64,000 nt of DNA from Methanobacteriota archaeon (GTDB taxonomy: Archaea > Thermoplasmatota > Poseidoniia > Poseidoniales > Poseidoniaceae), in NCBI GenBank assembly GCA_002720275.1, contig PBHR01000001.1, positions 10,126-74,125 on the forward strand. The letters are read 5' to 3'. A program made the position numbers and the translations under genes. The notes under the pieces are model-generated. The model worked only from the letters and a program-made list of their open reading frames with translations, did no database searches and was not told the DNA's origin. Numbering within the stretch: position 1 is the stretch's first letter; every line of letters starts with the position of its first letter. Of the stretch, positions 7,180 to 31,016 are shown one piece after another.

Positions 7180-8136
7180 ATGGCTGTAAGAACTAGCGCA
7201 CAATCTCGAAATCTGGCTAGAAAGCAGAGAGATAAGTGGAAAGCAAAAAGAATTTTTTCAATTAGGGCACCAAGAAACCCTTGGCAGTATAAGAAAATTG
7301 GAGAAACTTTTGGTGAAAGTGAGCAATTTATTGAAGGTAGAATTTTTCAAACAACACAACAAGAGTTTGATGGTGATTTTACTAAAATGCACGTCAAATT
7401 AAATTTCAGGATTGTTGAAGTGATTAATCAGGATGCAATTACAGAATTTGTAGGACACGCTCATCAAAATGATCACATCAGAAGGCAAATAAGACGCTAT
7501 AGAGGAAAAGTAGATGGTGTAGTTGACGTAGTTACTAATGATGGTTATTTGGTTCGATTGAAACCATTGATTGTAACAGAAGGAAGAGTTACAAGCAGTA
7601 TGAAGAAAGTAATGAGGAGAACAGTTTCCGAAATTATTACTACATTTGGTTCATCGTGTACATATCCAAATTTGCAAAAAGCAATTTTAGGTTCTGATAT
7701 TGAAACAAGCATGGTTAAAGCATTAAATCCAATTGCAAAAGTTCGTTCTGCGGTAATTGCAAAAAGCCAATTATTAAAATCAGGAGTAGTGAGTTCAGAA
7801 GGTCCAACATTGGATGAAATTCATGCTGCGGAAGTTAAAGCTGAAGCAGAATTGAAGGCTAAAAAGCAGGCAACAGAATCTGAAGTTGACGAAGCACCTA
7901 CGATTCTTGAAGCAGCAGAGGCTATGGAATCAATCAGTGAAAAAGTTTCACAAACATCCTCTGAAGAAATTTCAGATGAGAAAGAAGGAATTGCTAACCC
8001 AGAAGAAGGAACAGTAAGTGAAGATGTTGATTATCAATCTATGACAGTACCTCAATTAAAAGAATTATTAAAGGCTGCAGGAAAACCTGTTTCTGGCAAG
8101 AAGTCGGATTTGATTGAAAGACTTACTGGAGAGTGA
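7180..8136 (+). CDS. rps3ae: 30S ribosomal protein S3Ae (eS1) with C-terminal acidic linker and SAP motif
   Basis: N-terminus RNLARKQRDKWKAKRIFSIRAPRNPWQYKKIGETF is typical S3Ae. The 318-aa length is about 100 aa longer than usual. C-terminus MTVPQLKELLKAAGKPVSGKKSDLIERL matches the SAP consensus. Confidence 0.8.
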   Translation: MAVRTSAQSRNLARKQRDKWKAKRIFSIRAPRNPWQYKKIGETFGESEQFIEGRIFQTTQQEFDGDFTKMHVKLNFRIVEVINQDAITEFVGHAHQNDHIRRQIRRYRGKVDGVVDVVTNDGYLVRLKPLIVTEGRVTSSMKKVMRRTVSEIITTFGSSCTYPNLQKAILGSDIETSMVKALNPIAKVRSAVIAKSQLLKSGVVSSEGPTLDEIHAAEVKAEAELKAKKQATESEVDEAPTILEAAEAMESISEKVSQTSSEEISDEKEGIANPEEGTVSEDVDYQSMTVPQLKELLKAAGKPVSGKKSDLIERLTGE

Positions 8137-24376: not shown

Positions 24377-24742
24377 TTACAAAGGTAAATCCCATCCTTC
24401 TTCTAAAACATCAGGTATATTTTCATTTGAAGACTCATGATTTTTATGTGTGTTTAAATCACTTTTTAAGTTAATAGTCTTTGATTTTTGAGTCATTGTT
24501 GTCTCTGAATTAAGTTGTGGAAATAACTTATTATGATCTGTTTTTTTAGTTGTAAACATAGAGATGATGAAAATGAATATTAAAGATGAGAGTACAATAA
24601 CTAAAACCCAATATTTTTCACTTGGTTCATGAATTATTTTGTATAGTGATACAACGAGGATGAGAATTTGAGTAACTAAAATAAAATATCTTATCTGCGT
24701 TTTTTCAAACTCCATGGATGGTCTGAAGGAGGGTGCATTCAT
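24377..24742 (-). CDS. Small membrane protein, hypothetical
   Basis: Two hydrophobic helices (ILVTQILILVVSLY, WVLVIVLSSLIFIFIISMF). Confidence 0.3.
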   Translation of the reverse strand: MNAPSFRPSMEFEKTQIRYFILVTQILILVVSLYKIIHEPSEKYWVLVIVLSSLIFIFIISMFTTKKTDHNKLFPQLNSETTMTQKSKTINLKSDLNTHKNHESSNENIPDVLEEGWDLPL

Positions 24743-25406
24743 GAACCCCTTACATTACCCGCTATACATGAGGGGTCCACAGATCTCAAGTTGTCCAGGT
24801 TGGTTAATGACTGCTGTAGCACCTTGGGGTGAGAATAAAGAGGATGCTTATGATCAAGGACTTGTTGAATTGGGACTTGGAGATGCAAGATTAATTCGTG
24901 TAGAAGGTGCAATGTTGCCTATGGGTTTTGAACCTATAGCACCAGAATCTCTGCCTATGGGTAGTTTAGTAGAATGTCACTTAGCCATTGCTTATTCATT
25001 TGATAGTGGTATTGCTTCAGCAGGTGTTGCTTGGGCACATTGTAAAACACCAGAAGGAGATGAATGCTCAATTACGGCTTCTATTTCTACACAAAAAGAC
25101 TCAATTACTACTGATGAATTGTTAAGGAAAAATTTTAGAAATAAATTAGCGAGTAGGGATTTAGAAGTAATAGAATTTGACATTGCAGTAGATGAGGTTA
25201 CTGCAGGACCTGGGCATCATGGTGTTGCTTTGGCAGCATTAATATTGCCTGAAACAATGTCTTTTCAACATTCAGATCAATTGGGAAGAGTGCGTAGTGG
25301 TTTGACTAGATCCGTAAATGAGGTTAGAAATTTAAATATGAAAGAATCAAAATCACCGGTTCCAAGAGGGCCTAAAAGGGATGATGAAATAGATTTCAAC
25401 ATATGA
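24741..25406 (+). CDS. pdaD: Pyruvoyl-dependent arginine decarboxylase
   Basis: MNPLHYPLY...SSCPGW...AYDQGLVELGLGDARLIRVEGAMLP...LPMGSLVECHLAIAYS aligns with the PdaD family, including the N-terminal NPLH. Confidence 0.55.
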   Translation: MNPLHYPLYMRGPQISSCPGWLMTAVAPWGENKEDAYDQGLVELGLGDARLIRVEGAMLPMGFEPIAPESLPMGSLVECHLAIAYSFDSGIASAGVAWAHCKTPEGDECSITASISTQKDSITTDELLRKNFRNKLASRDLEVIEFDIAVDEVTAGPGHHGVALAALILPETMSFQHSDQLGRVRSGLTRSVNEVRNLNMKESKSPVPRGPKRDDEIDFNI

Positions 25407-25415
25407 GTTGTAATA

Positions 25416-25865
25416 ATGTCAAAAAAAACACCCTCATATCTTGTAATTCTTTGTAATGAGTGTAATTATTATTTTGGAAAGCATAAAAAATCAAAACTTA
25501 ATTGTCCTAGGTGCGGTTCTTTACAAAATTCACCACAAATCTATGGTAGGGTTGATGATTCAAACTCATTACATGATTTAGTTTCAGAATTGAATATTCC
25601 TGAAGAATTAAGAAGTGATTTTAAAAATTTAAACCAAAATAATGAAGATATAAACGAACCTAATAATTTAATCGATTTAATACCTATGATGTTTAATGAA
25701 ACAACTAATTCTGAAGGAGAATTGACATTAGTTGATGTAGAAAAATATGTTAAAAAAAAGAATCTAAAAATAACCCCGAGAGAACTTTTGGAAGTTTGTG
25801 AATTTGAAGGTTTATTGATTAGGTTACATGGTGAAAAGTGGAAAGTAATATCTGAATCCTTATGA
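25416..25865 (+). CDS. Zinc-ribbon protein, hypothetical
   Basis: CNECNYYFGKHKKSKLNCPRCGS Cx2C-x14-Cx2C. Confidence 0.4.
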   Translation: MSKKTPSYLVILCNECNYYFGKHKKSKLNCPRCGSLQNSPQIYGRVDDSNSLHDLVSELNIPEELRSDFKNLNQNNEDINEPNNLIDLIPMMFNETTNSEGELTLVDVEKYVKKKNLKITPRELLEVCEFEGLLIRLHGEKWKVISESL

Positions 25866-26382: not shown

Positions 26383-26955
26383 TTGATGGGTGAAATCATT
26401 ATTGCAATTACTGGTGCTTCTGGTGCAGCATATGGTTTAAGATTAATTGAAGTTCTTTCAGAACTTGGAATTGAAATGAGAGTAATAGTTACGGAATCTG
26501 CAAAATTGACATTAAAACATGAATGCGATTTCAATATCGATCAATTTAAATCTATAGAAGGCGTTCTATTAGAGGATAATGAAGACATTGCAGCAAAATC
26601 TGCAAGTGGTTCTGCAAAAATAGATGCCATGGTCATAGTTCCTTGTAGTGGAACAACTTTAGGTAAATTGGCAGCAGGTATTGGAGATAATTTGGTAACT
26701 AGAAGTGCCATAGTTTCAATGAAAGAAAGAAGAAAATTAATCATTGTTCCAAGAGAATCACCTCTGGCAACAGTCCATATAGAAAATATGTTGAAATTAT
26801 CTTCCTGGGATACTGTAATTTTGCCAGCAAGTCCTGGTTTTTACAATCATCCAAAATCTATTGATGATTTAATTGATTTTATTGTTTCAAGAATTTTAGA
26901 TCAATTAAAAATTGAAAATACTATTTCAAAAAGATGGACTGGTAATGAAATCTAA
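26383..26955 (+). CDS. ubiX: Flavin prenyltransferase UbiX/Pad1 family
   Basis: IIIAITGASGAAYGLRLIEVL...MVIVPCSGTTLGKLAAGIGDNLVTR. Confidence 0.8.
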   Translation: MMGEIIIAITGASGAAYGLRLIEVLSELGIEMRVIVTESAKLTLKHECDFNIDQFKSIEGVLLEDNEDIAAKSASGSAKIDAMVIVPCSGTTLGKLAAGIGDNLVTRSAIVSMKERRKLIIVPRESPLATVHIENMLKLSSWDTVILPASPGFYNHPKSIDDLIDFIVSRILDQLKIENTISKRWTGNEI

Positions 26956-27011: not shown

Positions 27012-28739
27012 ATGGCAGAGGATATGGAGTCACTTTCAGTCCCTGAACTCAAAAAAATTTTAAAAAATAAAAATTTACCAGTTTCTGGAAGAAAAAGTGA
27101 TTTGATTAAGAGGCTGGCGGAAGAAAACGCAAAAGATATTCAAATTTCAATACCTTTGTATAGTGAAAATAATCTTTGGAGGAGACTAAGAAATAAGAAA
27201 TGGGAACTTCGTAATGGTTATGTAATTTCAGCCGTTCATGTTTTTGTTAGTTTAATGGTTATTTTATCTACAGCAGGACTTGGTGCATATGCAGTGTCCC
27301 AATTTAATTCAAAAACACCAGATTATAATTTAATTCAATTCGATAGTTCCAAGGCAAGAGAATATACTCAGATGTTAGTTGATTTAGGTCATCCAGAATG
27401 GAACGGTAGGATGAGTGGATCAGTTGAAGAGCAAGCCACAGTAGACGCCATACAACAGAACTTTACAGAAATGGGTCTTATGTTGCAATATGAAACTTTC
27501 AATGTCCCTATGTTTGAAATCCGTTCTGAACCAGAACTTTCTATGTGTATACCAGGGGAGTACCCTTTTAGTCTTCAGAGTCCAACTCCTTGTGGCACCA
27601 CAGATATTAACGCAGAAATTATAAATTTTAATCATTTAACTGATTTTGTTTTACAAGGTTATTCCGGCACTAGAGAAATTCAGTTCTGGCAGGATGAATT
27701 TACAATTGCAAATCTTTCTGATGGAAGCGATGATTCCCTTTGGGATAATGCAAGTGGTCAAGTAGGTATATTGTGGTTAGATTCAGTGGGAGTTACAAGT
27801 AATACTGAATTTTATGCTAAAGCTAGAGATTCAAGTTTAGCGGGATTAATTATTGCAATTAATAAAGGAAATACTTGCAAACTCCCTTCATTAGAGGGAA
27901 CTTGTGTTCCATTTTTCAAAACTGTTGATGTGACTGAGTTAGGGACAATGCCAACAGATATTGCATTTATTATGGTTTCAAATGATGTTGGTAAAACGTT
28001 AAGTGATACTTTTGGAAATAAAGATCAAAATGATGTACGATTGAATTTAGTTACTGATGTTTATAATGATGGAACAATGGATGTTAGAGTACCTTGTGGA
28101 GTTTTACCTGGACAAACAGATGAATTAATCATAATTGGTGGTCATCATGATACAACATATAATGCGCCAGGGGCAGTTGATGATTCAAGTGGAGTTGCTA
28201 ACGTATTAGAATTAGCAAGGCAATTTAGCCTTTTATCAAATGAAATAGGCCCCTCCTATTATACCATTAAGTTTTGTACTTGGGGGGGTGAAGAAGAAGG
28301 TTTACATGGTTCAACAGCGTATGTAGATATGCATTCTATAGAATTATCCGAGATGCTCAGGCTCTATGTTAATTTTGACATGCCTCATGTAGATATTGAT
28401 TTAGAAACTAGAGGTAATAGCATTTCATTTTATGGTAATGGGATAGAAGATTTAGAGCATATATCAAACATTATTGAAGTTTTTAATAAAGAACAACCTG
28501 AAATTTCATCAAAATACGATTTAAGTTATTTCTATCAAAATGATGATGAGATCGCATGTAGTTCAGATCATTGTCCCTTTGTTAAAAAAATAAGTAAAGA
28601 CATTGTTGGTAGTTATGGCGGTGGCTCTTGGGAATATCATACTTACTTAGACGACATGTCTCGTTTTAATGAAGAAAGTTTATTTGTTACTGGAACTATC
28701 TTAGGTTCATATGTATTATATCTGGGATGGGGTGAATGA
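27012..28739 (+). CDS. Membrane-anchored M28-family metallopeptidase with N-terminal cytoplasmic SAP motif
   Basis: SAP: LSVPELKKILKNKNLPVSGRKSDLIKRLAEE. TM VISAVHVFVSLMVILSTAGLGAYAV. M28 metal ligands IIIGGHHDT...VDDSSGVANVLELAR...WGGEEEGLHGS...HCPF. Confidence 0.7.
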   Translation: MAEDMESLSVPELKKILKNKNLPVSGRKSDLIKRLAEENAKDIQISIPLYSENNLWRRLRNKKWELRNGYVISAVHVFVSLMVILSTAGLGAYAVSQFNSKTPDYNLIQFDSSKAREYTQMLVDLGHPEWNGRMSGSVEEQATVDAIQQNFTEMGLMLQYETFNVPMFEIRSEPELSMCIPGEYPFSLQSPTPCGTTDINAEIINFNHLTDFVLQGYSGTREIQFWQDEFTIANLSDGSDDSLWDNASGQVGILWLDSVGVTSNTEFYAKARDSSLAGLIIAINKGNTCKLPSLEGTCVPFFKTVDVTELGTMPTDIAFIMVSNDVGKTLSDTFGNKDQNDVRLNLVTDVYNDGTMDVRVPCGVLPGQTDELIIIGGHHDTTYNAPGAVDDSSGVANVLELARQFSLLSNEIGPSYYTIKFCTWGGEEEGLHGSTAYVDMHSIELSEMLRLYVNFDMPHVDIDLETRGNSISFYGNGIEDLEHISNIIEVFNKEQPEISSKYDLSYFYQNDDEIACSSDHCPFVKKISKDIVGSYGGGSWEYHTYLDDMSRFNEESLFVTGTILGSYVLYLGWGE

Positions 28740-29260
28740 AATTGGATGACATGAAATTTGTATTTGTTCCTTCAATTGTTAATATTGAGGGTGTTCTTGA
28801 AGGGCTTGGAATTTATTCTAAAGAATCTCTTGCTCTTGACAAATTGAAGAAGAAAATAAGTGAAAACTGGTCTTCTGGGTTTAAAGAAGCACAATTAGTT
28901 ATGTGGACTTTAGATTCTGATGAATCAGAGGCGATTCCATTAAAACATATGTATGCTCAAGTTTGCCCCATTTGTGATGAAAGGACTTTTTGGACCGATG
29001 TTGTTGAGATGAATGCATTATGTTATTTGCCTGCATGCCAAGCATGGATTGAAAGTAGTGACATTGAAGAAGGAAAAGTTGATTGTGGTTGGCCTCCAAT
29101 TGGGTTTACATCACAAGTAGATAGTTTAGAAGATGCACTATCTTCATTAAGGAATTATGGAGCAAAAATAAGAGCTTCTACATCTGATGATTCTGATATA
29201 TTTACTCATAGAACTCTTTTGGAAGAATATGAAAAATCTCTTGAAGAAGACTCTACATAG
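28736..29260 (+). CDS. Cys-containing hypothetical protein co-transcribed (ATGA overlap) with the M28 peptidase
   Basis: CPICDERTFW...CYLPACQAW...VDCGWPP. Confidence 0.4.
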   Translation: MKLDDMKFVFVPSIVNIEGVLEGLGIYSKESLALDKLKKKISENWSSGFKEAQLVMWTLDSDESEAIPLKHMYAQVCPICDERTFWTDVVEMNALCYLPACQAWIESSDIEEGKVDCGWPPIGFTSQVDSLEDALSSLRNYGAKIRASTSDDSDIFTHRTLLEEYEKSLEEDST

Positions 29261-31016
29261 ATTCTAGAGGAATTATACCTAAAGCATTACATCCTCTAAA
29301 AAGAAGTTTGCGTGAGTATTCACTTACTTTGTAATTGAACAAATTAATTTTGGAATCATTAATAATTGGGCAATCCCTGTAAAATAAATTATATGCTGTG
29401 GATAATTCAAGCATATAATAGCAGAAATGATTTGGTTTATTTTCTGAAACACTTTTTTCTATTGCTTCTTCGTACCTGAACATTGTTCGTAATAGTTTTG
29501 AAATGGAATTGTTAATTTCTATTTCTGAAAGTTCTAAGAGTTCATCTTTTAATCCTAAACGTTTCACTTTTTCATTTATTGAGCAAGATCTTGCATGTGA
29601 ATACATTATGAATGGGGCGGAATCAGAATCAAAAGATAACGCGTCATCCCATTTGAATGTGAATCCTTTTTCAGGTGAAACTTTTAGTATATTAAATCTA
29701 ATTGCGGATGAGGCAACTGCTTTTGCAATTTTTAATTTTTCTATTTCTTCAATCTTAATTTTTCTTTCAGAAAGAAGTTTTAATGCAATCTCCTCTGCTT
29801 CAAATATTAAATCATCCATGAAAACTACATTTCCTTTACGGGTAGACATTTTACCTTCTGGTAGTTTGATAAATGCGTAAAATACAACATCTGGAGGTTT
29901 TATCTTTAGTTCATTTAATGCTACAGAAACTTGTTTTGATTGTAATCTATGATCTTCTCCGAGTACATTAATTAGTTTCTCAGCTTTCTTCCATTTCCAT
30001 TGGTGGTATGCTAAATCTCTAGTAGCATAAAGGCTTGAACCGTCACCTCTACGGAAGAAAAATTTAGTTGATTTGCCACTGACTCCCTTTTCTGCAAGCT
30101 CTAAATACTTGGCTCCATTTTCGGCTTCTCCATAAAGTTCAGAGTTTTCTAAATCTTTCATTATTTTATTTACGGAACCATCGATGATGAATTGAGATTC
30201 ATTAGTAAATGAATCATAATTAATACCTAATTTCGATAGTGTTTCTAGCATTCCATCAAGAATTGGTTGGAAAGCATTATTGAATTTTGTAAGGACTTCT
30301 TCATCACCTTCTTCTGATTTATTTATTATGTCAGTTAGTTCATTTTCAATTTTTTGATTATCTTTTCTAATAATATTTGCTGCTTGATACCAACGTACTC
30401 TTATGTGGTCTTCTTTATTTTTCCACATCGGGTTTAAATCATCTATTTGGTTGTTTTTTAGTATTCTTTCAACCTCATCTACAGAAATATTTTCAATTGC
30501 CCAAGATAAAATACCTACTTGTTTCCCCATATCGTCTACATAATATTCGGCAATTACTTCATTTCCTAAATCTCTATTTAATCTGACAAGACAATCACCT
30601 AAAATAGCGTTTCTTGCTCTTCCAACGTGAAAAGGGCCATTTGGATTTGCAGATGTATGTTCAATTAAAATATTCTTTTTGTCAACGTTCTCAAAAAATT
30701 CATAGTTTTCTAAAAATAGTTTATTAGCAAGCCATTTGGGATTTGATGAAAAATTTACATAACCATTTAATGATTTTACTTCTATGTCTTCATTACTAAA
30801 TTCATTTATTTTTTTTGAAATATTCTCTGCTATTTTAACTGGGTTTTCTTTCAAAACTTTAGCTAATGAAAAACAGGGTATACAAAGATCACATACACTT
30901 CTATCTCTTGGGTCTTGAATTAAATCTTCATAATTTTCAATTTCTAAACCATAATGTTGGAGCGCTTTCCCAATGATTGGTTTAATTTTCTTTTTTAGAA
31001 CTTTCATTAAAATCAA
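29253..31016 (-). CDS. argS: Arginyl-tRNA synthetase
   Basis: Class I HIGH variant ANPNGPFHVGRARNAILGD and C-terminal KMSTRKG. 587 aa. Confidence 0.85.
   Translation of the reverse strand: MILMKVLKKKIKPIIGKALQHYGLEIENYEDLIQDPRDRSVCDLCIPCFSLAKVLKENPVKIAENISKKINEFSNEDIEVKSLNGYVNFSSNPKWLANKLFLENYEFFENVDKKNILIEHTSANPNGPFHVGRARNAILGDCLVRLNRDLGNEVIAEYYVDDMGKQVGILSWAIENISVDEVERILKNNQIDDLNPMWKNKEDHIRVRWYQAANIIRKDNQKIENELTDIINKSEEGDEEVLTKFNNAFQPILDGMLETLSKLGINYDSFTNESQFIIDGSVNKIMKDLENSELYGEAENGAKYLELAEKGVSGKSTKFFFRRGDGSSLYATRDLAYHQWKWKKAEKLINVLGEDHRLQSKQVSVALNELKIKPPDVVFYAFIKLPEGKMSTRKGNVVFMDDLIFEAEEIALKLLSERKIKIEEIEKLKIAKAVASSAIRFNILKVSPEKGFTFKWDDALSFDSDSAPFIMYSHARSCSINEKVKRLGLKDELLELSEIEINNSISKLLRTMFRYEEAIEKSVSENKPNHFCYYMLELSTAYNLFYRDCPIINDSKINLFNYKVSEYSRKLLFRGCNALGIIPLESM

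What the first reader, a model, noticed from the sequence alone, without database searches (positions are those of the whole stretch)
27012..29260. SAP motif - TM - M28 metallopeptidase fusion, co-transcribed with a Cys-containing partner
The protein starts with a second SAP motif (LSVPELKKILKNKNLPVSGRKSDLIKRLAEE), nearly the same as the S3Ae tail. It then has one TM helix and an extracytoplasmic M28 aminopeptidase domain with intact metal ligands (HHDT, D, EE, H). A cytoplasmic nucleic-acid-binding module on an ectopeptidase suggests a membrane-tethered regulator or nucleoid/ribosome-anchored enzyme. The next ORF (28736..29260, ATGA overlap) has a CPICDE...C...C...C cluster.
Basis: partly seen in the sequence, partly recalled or inferred. 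Interest (0 to 1): 0.55.

Follow-up and report, generated by a model that had tools for sequence, protein, structure and literature searches.

The report
SAP-tailed membrane aminopeptidase of marine archaea
This gene of a Marine Group II archaeon encodes a cell-surface zinc aminopeptidase held in the membrane by one helix, with a small nucleic-acid-binding (SAP) domain on its cytoplasmic tail; the same SAP module also sits on ribosomal proteins and other surface enzymes of this lineage, so it is a lineage-wide add-on of unknown purpose, not a one-off regulator.

Summary
ORF 27012..28739 (575 aa) has a significant SAP domain (Pfam 41.9 bits, cut-off 23.9), one hydrophobic helix (res ~70-96) with a positive-inside N flank, and a PA-domain M28 zinc aminopeptidase ectodomain with every metal ligand invariant.

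The closest solved folds are the secreted aminopeptidases 2EK8, BSAP/YwaD and PaAP. The architecture is conserved across Poseidoniales (1190 hits, 43-97% identity for the listed full-length ones). Ectodomain relatives in other Thermoplasmatota have only a short tail plus signal anchor, so SAP was added to the cytoplasmic tail. One MGII clade lost it and another carries a degenerate copy.

The "co-transcribed partner" claim is not supported. The 174-aa Cys protein is a real, conserved Zn-ribbon-like gene, but its conserved position is against the 3' end of ArgRS. In other MGII genomes it lies one to five genes away from M28, or is absent.

New context: in Poseidoniia, SAP is also fused to ribosomal proteins S3Ae, L32e and L24, and to the cytoplasmic ends of other membrane-anchored proteins, including an S8 subtilase.

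Best reading: a nutritional ecto-aminopeptidase whose SAP tail tethers it to nucleic acid (inferred). A released transcription regulator is unlikely. It is a new variant of a known kind, of moderate interest.

The parts
27012..28739 (+). Whole gene: SAP - linker - TM signal anchor - PA/M28 aminopeptidase (575 aa, stop TGA 28737-28739)
   Evidence: ORF list. 1190 homologues; the listed full-length ones are 43-97% identical. AF2 model mean pLDDT 83.8.
27021..27122 (+). SAP domain (res 4-37), predicted cytoplasmic
   Evidence: Pfam PF02037 41.9 bits, cut-off 23.9. Model helices 10-19 and 28-42; 10-residue block means of pLDDT 86-96 over res 1-40. Profile matches the SAP domains of MKL1 (2KVU) and Tho1 (1H1J). 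Mean pairwise identity 0.42 against 0.15 for the linker.
27123..27218 (+). Poorly conserved linker (res 38-69), ending in the K/R-rich juxtamembrane stretch WRRLRNKKWELR
   Evidence: pLDDT below 50 at res 43-53. Identity 0.15. 6 K/R in the 15 residues before the TM helix.
27219..27299 (+). Single transmembrane helix / signal anchor (res 70-96), N-in C-out
   Evidence: Hydropathy maximum 2.06. Model helix 74-98. Family-wide K+R is 2.3 on the N flank and 0.46 on the C flank; net charge +1.1 and -3.9.
27309..28736 (+). Extracytoplasmic PA-domain M28 aminopeptidase ectodomain (res 100-575). The PA-like insertion is roughly res 200-350. The Pfam M28 match is res 364-562 (28101-28697).
   Evidence: Pfam PF04389 E 1e-25. 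Foldseek: 2EK8 E 1.4e-27, TMt 0.70; BSAP 6HC6/6HC7 TMt 0.73-0.76; PaAP 8AC7. Invariant ligands H378, D380, D390, E427, E428, D456, H543 and invariant C179, C298, C362, C422.
28736..29260 (+). Downstream 174-aa conserved Zn-ribbon-like protein (CPxC...Cx4C, DCGWP). It overlaps the M28 stop by ATGA. I do not consider it part of the M28 system.
   Evidence: 15 homologue clusters. 46% and 33% identical copies sit next to ArgRS in L001 and L003, separated from M28 by 1 and 5 genes; absent in L002 and L124. No Pfam hit. AF2 model poor, pLDDT 58.6.
26383..26955 (+). Upstream UbiX-type flavoprotein gene, the conserved upstream neighbour of the M28 gene across MGII
   Evidence: Pfam Flavoprotein E 4e-46. 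Same order in L001-L004 and L124.
8029..8127 (+). Second SAP copy in the window: C-terminal tail of ribosomal protein S3Ae (gene 7180..8136)
   Evidence: Pfam Ribosomal_S3Ae 150 bits plus SAP 46.8 bits at res 284-316. phmmer E 2.9e-9 against the M28 SAP.

Best explanation
The gene encodes a type II (N-in, C-out) membrane-anchored, PA-domain-containing M28 di-zinc aminopeptidase of a Poseidoniaceae (Marine Group II) archaeon.

Shown:
- The ectodomain (res ~100-575) has the sequence, ligands and fold of secreted broad-specificity aminopeptidases (Aneurinibacillus AM-1 aminopeptidase, B. subtilis BSAP/YwaD, P. aeruginosa PaAP).
- It is held at the cell surface by one signal-anchor helix.
- The cytoplasmic N-terminal tail carries a bona fide SAP (helix-extended loop-helix) domain.
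- The architecture is conserved across Poseidoniales.
- SAP-less relatives in other Thermoplasmatota have the same anchor plus ectodomain.
- The same SAP module in this lineage is fused to ribosomal proteins S3Ae, L32e and L24, and to the predicted cytoplasmic ends of other membrane proteins (S8 subtilase, two large ectoproteins, Zn-ribbon multi-TM proteins).

Inferred:
- The enzyme trims N-terminal residues from extracellular peptides, feeding the protein-based heterotrophy described for MGII.
- The SAP tail is not needed for catalysis. It acts as a low-specificity nucleic-acid anchor (nucleoid DNA, or RNA/ribosomes) that links the membrane enzyme, and the other SAP-tagged proteins, to the nucleoid or translation machinery. 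This would fix its position or stabilise its co-translational insertion.
- The downstream 174-aa Zn-ribbon gene is an independent gene that merely abuts M28 in this genome.
For: Domains: SAP 41.9 bits and M28 91 bits.

Topology:
- Single hydrophobic segment.
- Positive-inside bias across 35 homologues: K+R 2.3 against 0.46, net charge +1.1 against -3.9.
- Invariant cysteines in the ectodomain.
- All structural relatives are secreted enzymes or ecto-enzymes.

Active site: H378, D380, D390, E427, E428, D456 and H543 are invariant and align with the 2EK8 motifs.

Fold: 2EK8 E 1.4e-27, TMt 0.70; 6HC7 TMt 0.76. Model pLDDT 83.8.

Conservation and origin:
- 1190 homologues, most of the best 120 carrying PF02037+PF04389.
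- About 6 clusters at 50% identity match from the SAP onward. About 25 full-length clusters of 445-546 aa match only from profile position ~65-105 and begin with a TM anchor. The four that carry a source name are called Ca. Thermoplasmatota archaeon.

SAP under selection: identity 0.42 against 0.15 for the linker.

SAP promiscuity:
- A motif scan gave 119 stretches, the large majority in Poseidoniia MAGs.
- ORF classes: S3Ae 46, L32e 34, M28 4, 730-aa ectoprotein 4, S8 2, and others. Pfam confirmed the fusions.
- In every membrane protein examined, SAP lies at the end where positive residues or a preceding signal peptide imply the cytoplasm (N-terminal to a signal anchor, or C-terminal to a stop-transfer helix).

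Literature: MGII surveys list M28 among the predicted extracellular peptidases (PMC6864105, PMC6336850).
Against: - No experiment or computation here shows that this SAP binds DNA or RNA. SAP domains can also mediate protein contacts.
- SAP net charge in the family ranges from -3 to +5. A clade of MGII proteins has lost the conserved Gly, and a 540-aa clade lacks SAP altogether in the same synteny. Whatever SAP does is therefore dispensable.
- Topology rests on hydropathy and charge rules, not on a dedicated predictor or experiment.
- The Pfam PA-domain HMM did not report a hit. The PA insertion is inferred from whole-chain structural alignment.
- Substrate specificity is unknown.
Confidence: 0.55

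Rival explanations
1. SAP is a protein-protein or sorting module, not a nucleic-acid binder. It docks SAP-tagged proteins (ribosomal proteins, tails of ectoenzymes) on a shared cytoplasmic partner. One example would be bringing ribosomes to the insertion site or clustering surface hydrolases.
For: The same module sits on S3Ae, L32e and L24 (uL24 lies at the exit tunnel, from general ribosome knowledge) and on membrane protein tails. Several M28 SAP copies have zero or negative net charge.
Against: The sequences score strongly against the classical SAP model (40-58 bits) and match the MKL1 and Tho1 SAP domains. From prior knowledge, the characterised function of those domains is nucleic-acid binding. 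No candidate partner was identified here.
Confidence: 0.22
2. The SAP tail is a functionally neutral passenger. A mobile mini-domain spread by domain shuffling in Poseidoniales and merely serves as a soluble, charged cytoplasmic cap for the signal anchor.
For: It was lost in the 540-aa clade and is degenerate in another. It is attached to very different proteins. Relatives outside MGII work with a short K/R tail only.
Against: It is retained in the listed homologues named Poseidoniaceae and Thalassarchaeaceae. Identity is 0.42 against 0.15 for the adjacent linker. The hallmark residues (L..L, G, K, R.L) are conserved.
Confidence: 0.13
3. One reading: a membrane-tethered transcription regulator whose SAP domain is released by regulated proteolysis when the ectodomain senses peptides.
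For: A DNA-binding-type domain lies on the cytoplasmic side and a ligand-binding enzyme on the outside.
Against: - All catalytic residues are intact, so it is an enzyme and not a sensor pseudo-enzyme.
- SAP is a ~35-residue module that is generally non-sequence-specific (prior knowledge).
- The same module is on ribosomal proteins and on a subtilase tail.
- SAP is dispensable in whole clades.
- No protease or target genes are conserved in the neighbourhood, which holds UbiX, ArgRS and aRF1.
Confidence: 0.04
4. M28 and the downstream 174-aa Cys protein form a two-gene functional unit, for example a chaperone or inhibitor of the peptidase.
For: There is an ATGA start/stop overlap in the window. 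Both genes are conserved in the nearest relatives.
Against: - In L001 a parvulin gene separates them.
- In L003 five genes separate them, including a minus-strand 1109-aa gene.
- In L002 and L124 the gene is absent and AhpC sits there.
- The 174-aa gene always abuts ArgRS convergently.
- It has no signal peptide or TM helix, whereas the peptidase domain is outside the cell.
Confidence: 0.05

Closest known systems
PA-domain M28 aminopeptidases: Aneurinibacillus sp. AM-1 aminopeptidase (PDB 2EK8), B. subtilis BSAP/YwaD (6HC6), P. aeruginosa PaAP (8AC7)
   Same: Same M28 catalytic core with the same ligand motifs (HxD, DD, EE, D, H). The whole-chain fold matches, including the inserted PA-like domain (Foldseek E 1e-25 to 1e-27, TMt up to 0.76). 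All are extracytoplasmic.
   Different: Those are secreted, soluble bacterial enzymes with cleavable signal peptides or propeptides. This one is permanently anchored by an N-terminal TM helix and carries a cytoplasmic SAP domain. Sequence identity is only 17-19%.
M28B type II membrane proteins: glutamate carboxypeptidase II/PSMA and transferrin receptor 1
   Same: Same overall layout: cytoplasmic N-tail, single TM helix, protease-like domain with inserted PA/apical domain. There, the cytoplasmic tail mediates localisation. Foldseek E ~1e-21.
   Different: This protein has no C-terminal helical dimerisation domain; it ends right after the M28 core. TMt is lower (0.42-0.47). The tail here is a folded SAP domain, not a short sorting motif. 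The host is archaeal.
Eukaryotic SAP domains (SAF-A/B, PIAS, Ku70, Tho1, MKL1)
   Same: Same ~35-residue helix-extended loop-helix motif, above the Pfam gathering score. The profile hits MKL1 (2KVU) and Tho1 (1H1J).
   Different: The host proteins are archaeal ribosomal and membrane proteins rather than nuclear chromatin or RNA-processing factors. Nucleic-acid binding was not tested here.
HeH/LEM inner-nuclear-membrane proteins (yeast Heh1/Src1, Heh2; MAN1, LEM2)
   Same: Works-like analogy only: an N-terminal helix-extension-helix DNA-binding motif followed by a TM segment, tethering DNA to a membrane.
   Different: The Pfam HeH score is below its cut-off (14.6 against 28.9). There is no MSC/winged-helix domain and only one TM helix. 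The other side of the membrane carries a hydrolase. No homology beyond the mini-domain.

Membership tests
Peptidase family M28 (Pfam PF04389) | Sequence match to the family HMM above the curated cut-off | tested here: met
   91 bits against a cut-off of 21.3, res 364-562.
Peptidase family M28 (Pfam PF04389) | Co-catalytic zinc ligands (His, bridging Asp, Glu, Asp, His) and the catalytic Glu | tested here: met
   H378, D390, E428, D456 and H543, plus E427 and D380, are invariant in 35 homologues. The motifs align with 2EK8.
Peptidase family M28 (Pfam PF04389) | Aminopeptidase activity | not testable with these tools
   Needs enzyme assays.
PA-domain-containing M28 aminopeptidases (2EK8 / BSAP / PaAP type) | PA (protease-associated) domain inserted in the N-terminal part of the peptidase domain | tested here: inconclusive
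   Whole-chain Foldseek alignments cover 478-512 columns of 406-486-residue targets that contain the PA domain (TMt 0.50-0.76). However, no Pfam PA hit was reported at E<=1, and I did not inspect the domain alignment separately.
SAP domain (Pfam PF02037) | HMM match above the gathering score and a helix-extended loop-helix structure with conserved Gly and basic residues | tested here: met
   41.9 bits against 23.9. Model helices 10-19 and 28-42; 10-residue block means of pLDDT 86-96 over res 1-40. L13, L17, G26, K28, R34 and L35 are conserved.
SAP domain (Pfam PF02037) | Binding of DNA or RNA | not testable with these tools
   Needs EMSA, anisotropy or NMR.
M28B (GCPII / transferrin receptor) | C-terminal helical dimerisation domain after the protease-like domain | tested here: not met
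   The protein ends at res 575 with the last M28 helix (554-574). Targets are 620-706 residues and TMt is only 0.42-0.47.
HeH/LEM inner-nuclear-membrane proteins | HeH/LEM HMM match and an MSC domain between or after two TM segments | tested here: not met
   HeH scores 14.6 bits against a cut-off of 28.9. There is one TM helix only and no MSC hit.
Membrane-tethered transcription factors released by intramembrane proteolysis | Sequence-specific DNA-binding domain and a cognate site-1/site-2 protease | not tested
   No HTH or other specific DNA-binding domain was found by Pfam. No protease gene is conserved nearby. Cleavage cannot be tested here.

The most novel reading that the evidence does not exclude
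In Poseidoniales, the most abundant planktonic archaea of surface oceans, SAP domains form a lineage-specific cytoplasmic tethering system. Copies sit on three ribosomal proteins (S3Ae, L32e, L24) and on the cytoplasmic tails of membrane-anchored exo-hydrolases (M28 aminopeptidase, S8 subtilase, others). They would bind the nucleoid or RNA and physically couple chromosome, ribosomes and the surface digestive apparatus. That would be a prokaryotic analogue of the HeH/LEM membrane-chromatin tethers of the eukaryotic nuclear envelope.
Probability: 0.2. Interest if true: 0.75.

Novelty: new variant of a known kind. Interest (0 to 1): 0.5.

Why it matters
MGII archaea are uncultured but globally abundant degraders of marine protein, and their surface peptidases are central to that role. 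A conserved cytoplasmic nucleic-acid-binding tail on such an enzyme hints at an unstudied layer of spatial organisation: membrane-nucleoid-ribosome coupling in a small archaeal cell. The same tail occurs on ribosomal proteins and on other predicted membrane-anchored surface proteins, including an S8 subtilase. SAP is usually regarded as a chiefly eukaryotic chromatin and RNA module, so its expansion here also bears on how that domain evolved. If the SAP tail is merely a passenger, the gene is an ordinary nutritional ecto-aminopeptidase.

Tried and rejected
- The SAP-only profile search of the 5.8-billion protein set returned almost only short fragments of 36-79 aa. It gave no architectures and used the last protein search.
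- The search for related loci with the SAP alignment failed because no stretch was conserved enough.
- The AlphaFold model of the 174-aa neighbour was too poor to search (pLDDT 58.6). Pfam and NCBIfam gave nothing for it.
- Literature searches for SAP with MGII, archaeal ribosomal proteins, or prokaryotic membrane proteins found no relevant paper in the held library.
- I considered that the SAP-less 540-aa homologues were mis-called starts. This is rejected: only 62 nt separate UbiX from the start codon in L124.
- I considered an extracellular SAP, ComEA-like. This is rejected on the positive-inside rule, the absence of a preceding signal peptide, and the cytoplasmic ribosomal hosts of the same module.
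- The promoter/terminator scan was not used because it models bacterial sigma-70 signals, not archaeal ones.
Full report
**What is there**

The window is low-GC (about 33%). Its gene content is archaeal: an aCPSF1-type ORF (my reading of its sequence), UbiX (Pfam), and ArgRS and aRF1 (identified through the same-order neighbours in related loci). ORF 27012..28739 on the plus strand encodes 575 aa.

- Pfam finds a SAP domain at res 4-37 (E 6.9e-11, 41.9 bits; gathering score 23.9).
- Pfam finds Peptidase_M28 at res 364-562 (E 1e-25, 91 bits).
- HeH, FANC_SAP and M20 hits are sub-threshold echoes of the same two domains.
- NCBIfam gives only weak aminopeptidase matches.
- A Kyte-Doolittle scan finds one hydrophobic segment, res ~70-96, and none elsewhere.

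**Topology**

The 15 residues before the hydrophobic segment contain 6 K/R (WRRLRNKKWELR). The 15 residues just after it contain 1.

Over 35 homologues the means are 2.3 K+R on the N flank against 0.46 on the C flank. Net charge is +1.1 against -3.9. This is a clear positive-inside pattern for N-in, C-out.

Four further points place the peptidase outside and the SAP in the cytoplasm:
- The ectodomain has four invariant cysteines (C179, C298, C362, C422).
- All structural relatives are secreted or ecto-enzymes.
- There is no signal peptide ahead of the SAP.
- The same SAP module is fused to ribosomal proteins, which are cytoplasmic.

This is inference from rules, not from a dedicated predictor or an experiment.

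**The enzyme**

In an alignment of 35 homologues at 44-81% identity to the window protein, H378, D380, D390 (and D391), E427, E428, D456 and H543 are invariant. They align with the HHD, DD, EE, D and YHT motifs of aminopeptidase 2EK8.

An AlphaFold2 model built on that alignment has mean pLDDT 83.8 and pTM 0.75:
- The SAP helices are at 10-19 and 28-42 (10-residue block means of pLDDT 86-96 over res 1-40).
- A disordered linker follows.
- A TM helix spans 74-98.
- The ectodomain is modelled with mostly high confidence.

Foldseek against the PDB gives:

| Target | Result |
|---|---|
| Aneurinibacillus AM-1 aminopeptidase 2EK8 | E 1.4e-27, TMt 0.70 |
| B. subtilis BSAP/YwaD 6HC6/6HC7 | TMt 0.73-0.76 |
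| P. aeruginosa PaAP 8AC7 | E ~1e-25 |
| GCPII, NAALADL1, transferrin receptor | E ~1e-21, TMt 0.42-0.47 |

The top matches are all M28 enzymes with an inserted PA domain. Their alignments span nearly the whole targets, so residues ~200-350 are most likely a PA-like insertion. The Pfam PA model itself did not fire.

The protein lacks the C-terminal helical domain of the GCPII/TfR subfamily. I therefore read it as an active, surface-anchored, broad-type aminopeptidase. MGII genome surveys already count M28 enzymes among the predicted extracellular peptidases of this group (PMC6864105, PMC6336850). Neither paper's M28 passages mention a SAP domain. Searches combining 'SAP domain' with MGII, archaeal ribosomal proteins or prokaryotic membrane proteins returned no relevant paper in the held library.

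**Distribution and origin of the fusion**

The protein search found 1190 homologues. The best 120 are 43-97% identical, nearly all over the full length, and most carry PF02037+PF04389. The names sources give them are Ca. Poseidoniaceae, Thalassarchaeaceae, Poseidoniales, Thermoplasmatota or Euryarchaeota 'M28 family peptidase' or 'M20/M25/M40 family metallo-hydrolase'.

A profile search of 1.84 billion 50%-identity representatives gave three groups:
- About six clusters matched from the SAP onward.
- One 544-aa cluster matched only from just before the TM helix.
- About 25 full-length clusters of 445-546 aa matched only from profile position ~65-105, that is, from the TM helix or ectodomain.

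Nearly all of these shorter proteins begin with a short K/R tail and a hydrophobic anchor. The four of ten looked up that carry a source name are called Ca. Thermoplasmatota archaeon M28 peptidases. The ancestral form was therefore tail - anchor - PA/M28, and the SAP was grafted onto the cytoplasmic tail in the Poseidoniales lineage.

Within the family, mean pairwise identity by region is:

| Region | Identity |
|---|---|
| SAP | 0.42 |
| Linker | 0.15 |
| TM helix | 0.27 |
| PA-like region | 0.48 |
| M28 core | 0.65 |

So the SAP is maintained by selection. It is not indispensable, though:
- A 540-aa MGII clade lacks it in the same synteny, with only 62 nt between UbiX and the start codon (L124).
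- Another clade has a degenerate copy without the conserved Gly and with net charge from -3 to +2.

**The downstream ORF**

The ATGA overlap is real. The 174-aa product is a genuine conserved protein with invariant C77-P-x-C80, C96, C101 and a DCGWP motif, which looks like a zinc ribbon.

Its conserved location is convergent against the 3' end of ArgRS, not next to M28:
- In L001 (M28 51% identical) a parvulin gene lies between M28 and it.
- In L003 (Thalassarchaeaceae) a parvulin gene, a trypsin-like protease gene, a minus-strand 1109-aa gene and a small ORF lie between M28 and it, while it still abuts ArgRS.
- In L002 and L124 it is absent and an AhpC gene occupies the place.

The stable synteny is UbiX -> M28 ... 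<- ArgRS <- aRF1. The adjacency in this window is best explained by local loss of the intervening genes. Co-transcription here is possible, but it is not evidence of shared function. Its structure model was too poor to use (pLDDT 58.6).

**The SAP module in the lineage**

I scanned 185,579 species genomes with a degenerate DNA pattern for the SAP core V-S-G-[KR]-K-x-[DE]-L-I-x-R-L. My own rough estimate from the pattern's information content is about a dozen chance hits. The large majority are in Poseidoniales or MGIII MAGs, or in marine 'Euryarchaeota/Methanobacteriota' MAGs.

The ORFs that carry it, with Pfam confirmation on representatives:

| Host protein | Count among 118 ORFs |
|---|---|
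| S3Ae with C-terminal SAP (as in this window, 7180..8136) | 46 |
| N-terminal SAP + acidic linker + ribosomal protein L32e | 34 |
| The M28 family | 4 |
| SAP - acidic linker - TM - 730-aa unknown ectodomain | 4 |
| Peptidase_S8 subtilase - TM - C-terminal SAP | 2 |
| SAP + Zn ribbon + 3 TM | 2 |
| 4 TM + SAP + Zn ribbon | 2 |
| SAP + DUF7121 | 2 |
| L24P/L26 with C-terminal SAP | 1 |
| 1178-aa signal-peptide ectoprotein - TM - tail - C-terminal SAP (no Pfam scan; repeat content read from its sequence) | 1 |
| HEAT + SAP | 1 |

In each single-pass membrane protein, the SAP lies at the end that the signal peptide or charge pattern puts in the cytoplasm. The SAP-M28 fusion is thus one instance of a lineage-wide habit of attaching SAP to two groups: ribosomal proteins, and the cytoplasmic tails of surface hydrolases. 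The two SAP copies in this window are about 55% identical, not nearly identical.

**Mechanism**

Shown: the architecture, the intact active site, the fold, the conservation, the origin of the fusion, and the promiscuity of the module.

Inferred:
- The ectodomain trims N-terminal residues of extracellular peptides.
- The SAP tail, by analogy with characterised SAP domains (Tho1, MKL1, SAF-A, Ku70; prior knowledge), binds nucleic acid with low specificity. It thereby ties the membrane enzyme to the nucleoid or to RNA/ribosomes. This could stabilise co-translational insertion or fix the enzyme's position.

Rivals:
- SAP as a protein-docking tag shared with ribosomal proteins.
- SAP as a nearly neutral passenger.
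- A released transcription regulator (unlikely).
- A two-gene unit with the Zn-ribbon protein (unlikely).

**Comparison with known families, and novelty**

The protein is a member of peptidase family M28, and it resembles the PA-domain aminopeptidases in fold. It is not a member of the GCPII/TfR subfamily because it has no C-terminal domain. It shares only a layout analogy with HeH/LEM inner-nuclear-membrane proteins.

The gene family is already annotated in databases as an M28 peptidase, so the enzyme is not new. I found no description of the SAP tail, nor of the wider SAP expansion on ribosomal and membrane proteins of Poseidoniia, in the library searched. I rate it a new variant of a known kind, with moderate interest (0.5). 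The more ambitious reading is a SAP-based nucleoid-ribosome-membrane tethering system. It is not excluded, and I give it about 0.2.

Noticed in passing
window 7180-8136 (+): Ribosomal protein S3Ae carries a ~110-residue acidic extension ending in a C-terminal SAP domain (Pfam 46.8 bits). The same fusion was the commonest class (46 of 118) among SAP-motif ORFs in Poseidoniia genomes.
   Followed up: partly
L045, L038, L006 and about 30 other loci (e.g. the 219-aa ORF in L045): N-terminal SAP + acidic linker + ribosomal protein L32e fusion, widespread in Poseidoniales (34 of 118 motif ORFs). L011 has ribosomal protein L24P/L26 with a C-terminal SAP.
   Followed up: partly
L082 and L068 (ORFs of 678+ and 768+ aa): Subtilase (Peptidase_S8) ectodomain - single TM helix - short tail - C-terminal SAP. 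This is the mirror-image (type I) version of the SAP-TM-M28 layout. L017 is a 1178-aa protein whose sequence reads as signal peptide - large Asp-rich repeat ectodomain - TM - tail - C-terminal SAP (not scanned against Pfam).
   Followed up: partly
L025, L050, L058, L035: A 730-754-aa family: SAP - long acidic linker - TM - large ectodomain with no Pfam match. This is another SAP-tailed type II surface protein, of unknown function.
   Followed up: no
L028 (Bradymonadales MAG), L019/L034/L048 (Oscillospiraceae): Bacterial proteins with the same SAP core motif. One is a 529-aa ORF that reads by eye like trigger factor with a C-terminal SAP (not scanned against Pfam), which would again be a ribosome-associated protein. 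The others are ~400-aa Oscillospiraceae proteins with an internal SAP.
   Followed up: no
window 28736-29260 (+) and 29253-31016 (-): The 174-aa Zn-ribbon-like gene and ArgRS converge and overlap by 8 bp at their 3' ends. The same tight convergent pairing is kept in L001 and L003, so any functional link of this unknown protein is more likely with ArgRS than with M28.
   Followed up: partly
P0017 (715 aa; alignment A1 columns ~90-220): One M28 homologue has a ~140-residue hydrophobic insertion (apparently extra TM segments) between the SAP and the usual anchor. This could be a real variant or an assembly or gene-call artefact.
   Followed up: no
L116 ('Salipiger bermudensis' MAG), L099 ('Acidimicrobiaceae' MAG), L040 ('Deltaproteobacteria' SAG): Contigs in bins labelled as bacteria encode Poseidoniales-type SAP proteins (e.g. 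the archaeal SAP-L32e). This probably reflects mis-binning or contamination of those public assemblies.
   Followed up: no
P0146, P0175, P0217, P0220, P0239; P0370: Very short (37-67 aa) SAP-only ORFs are called inside long contigs (0.15-2 Mb). They are possible stand-alone SAP mini-proteins or mis-called gene ends. P0370 (462 aa) shows five SAP-like stretches.
   Followed up: no
window 24714-25406 (+) and 25416-25865 (+): Two conserved-looking ORFs upstream of UbiX: a 230-aa protein with no significant Pfam match, and a 149-aa N-terminal Zn-ribbon protein with a borderline MRNIP hit (27.1 bits against a cut-off of 27).
   Followed up: no
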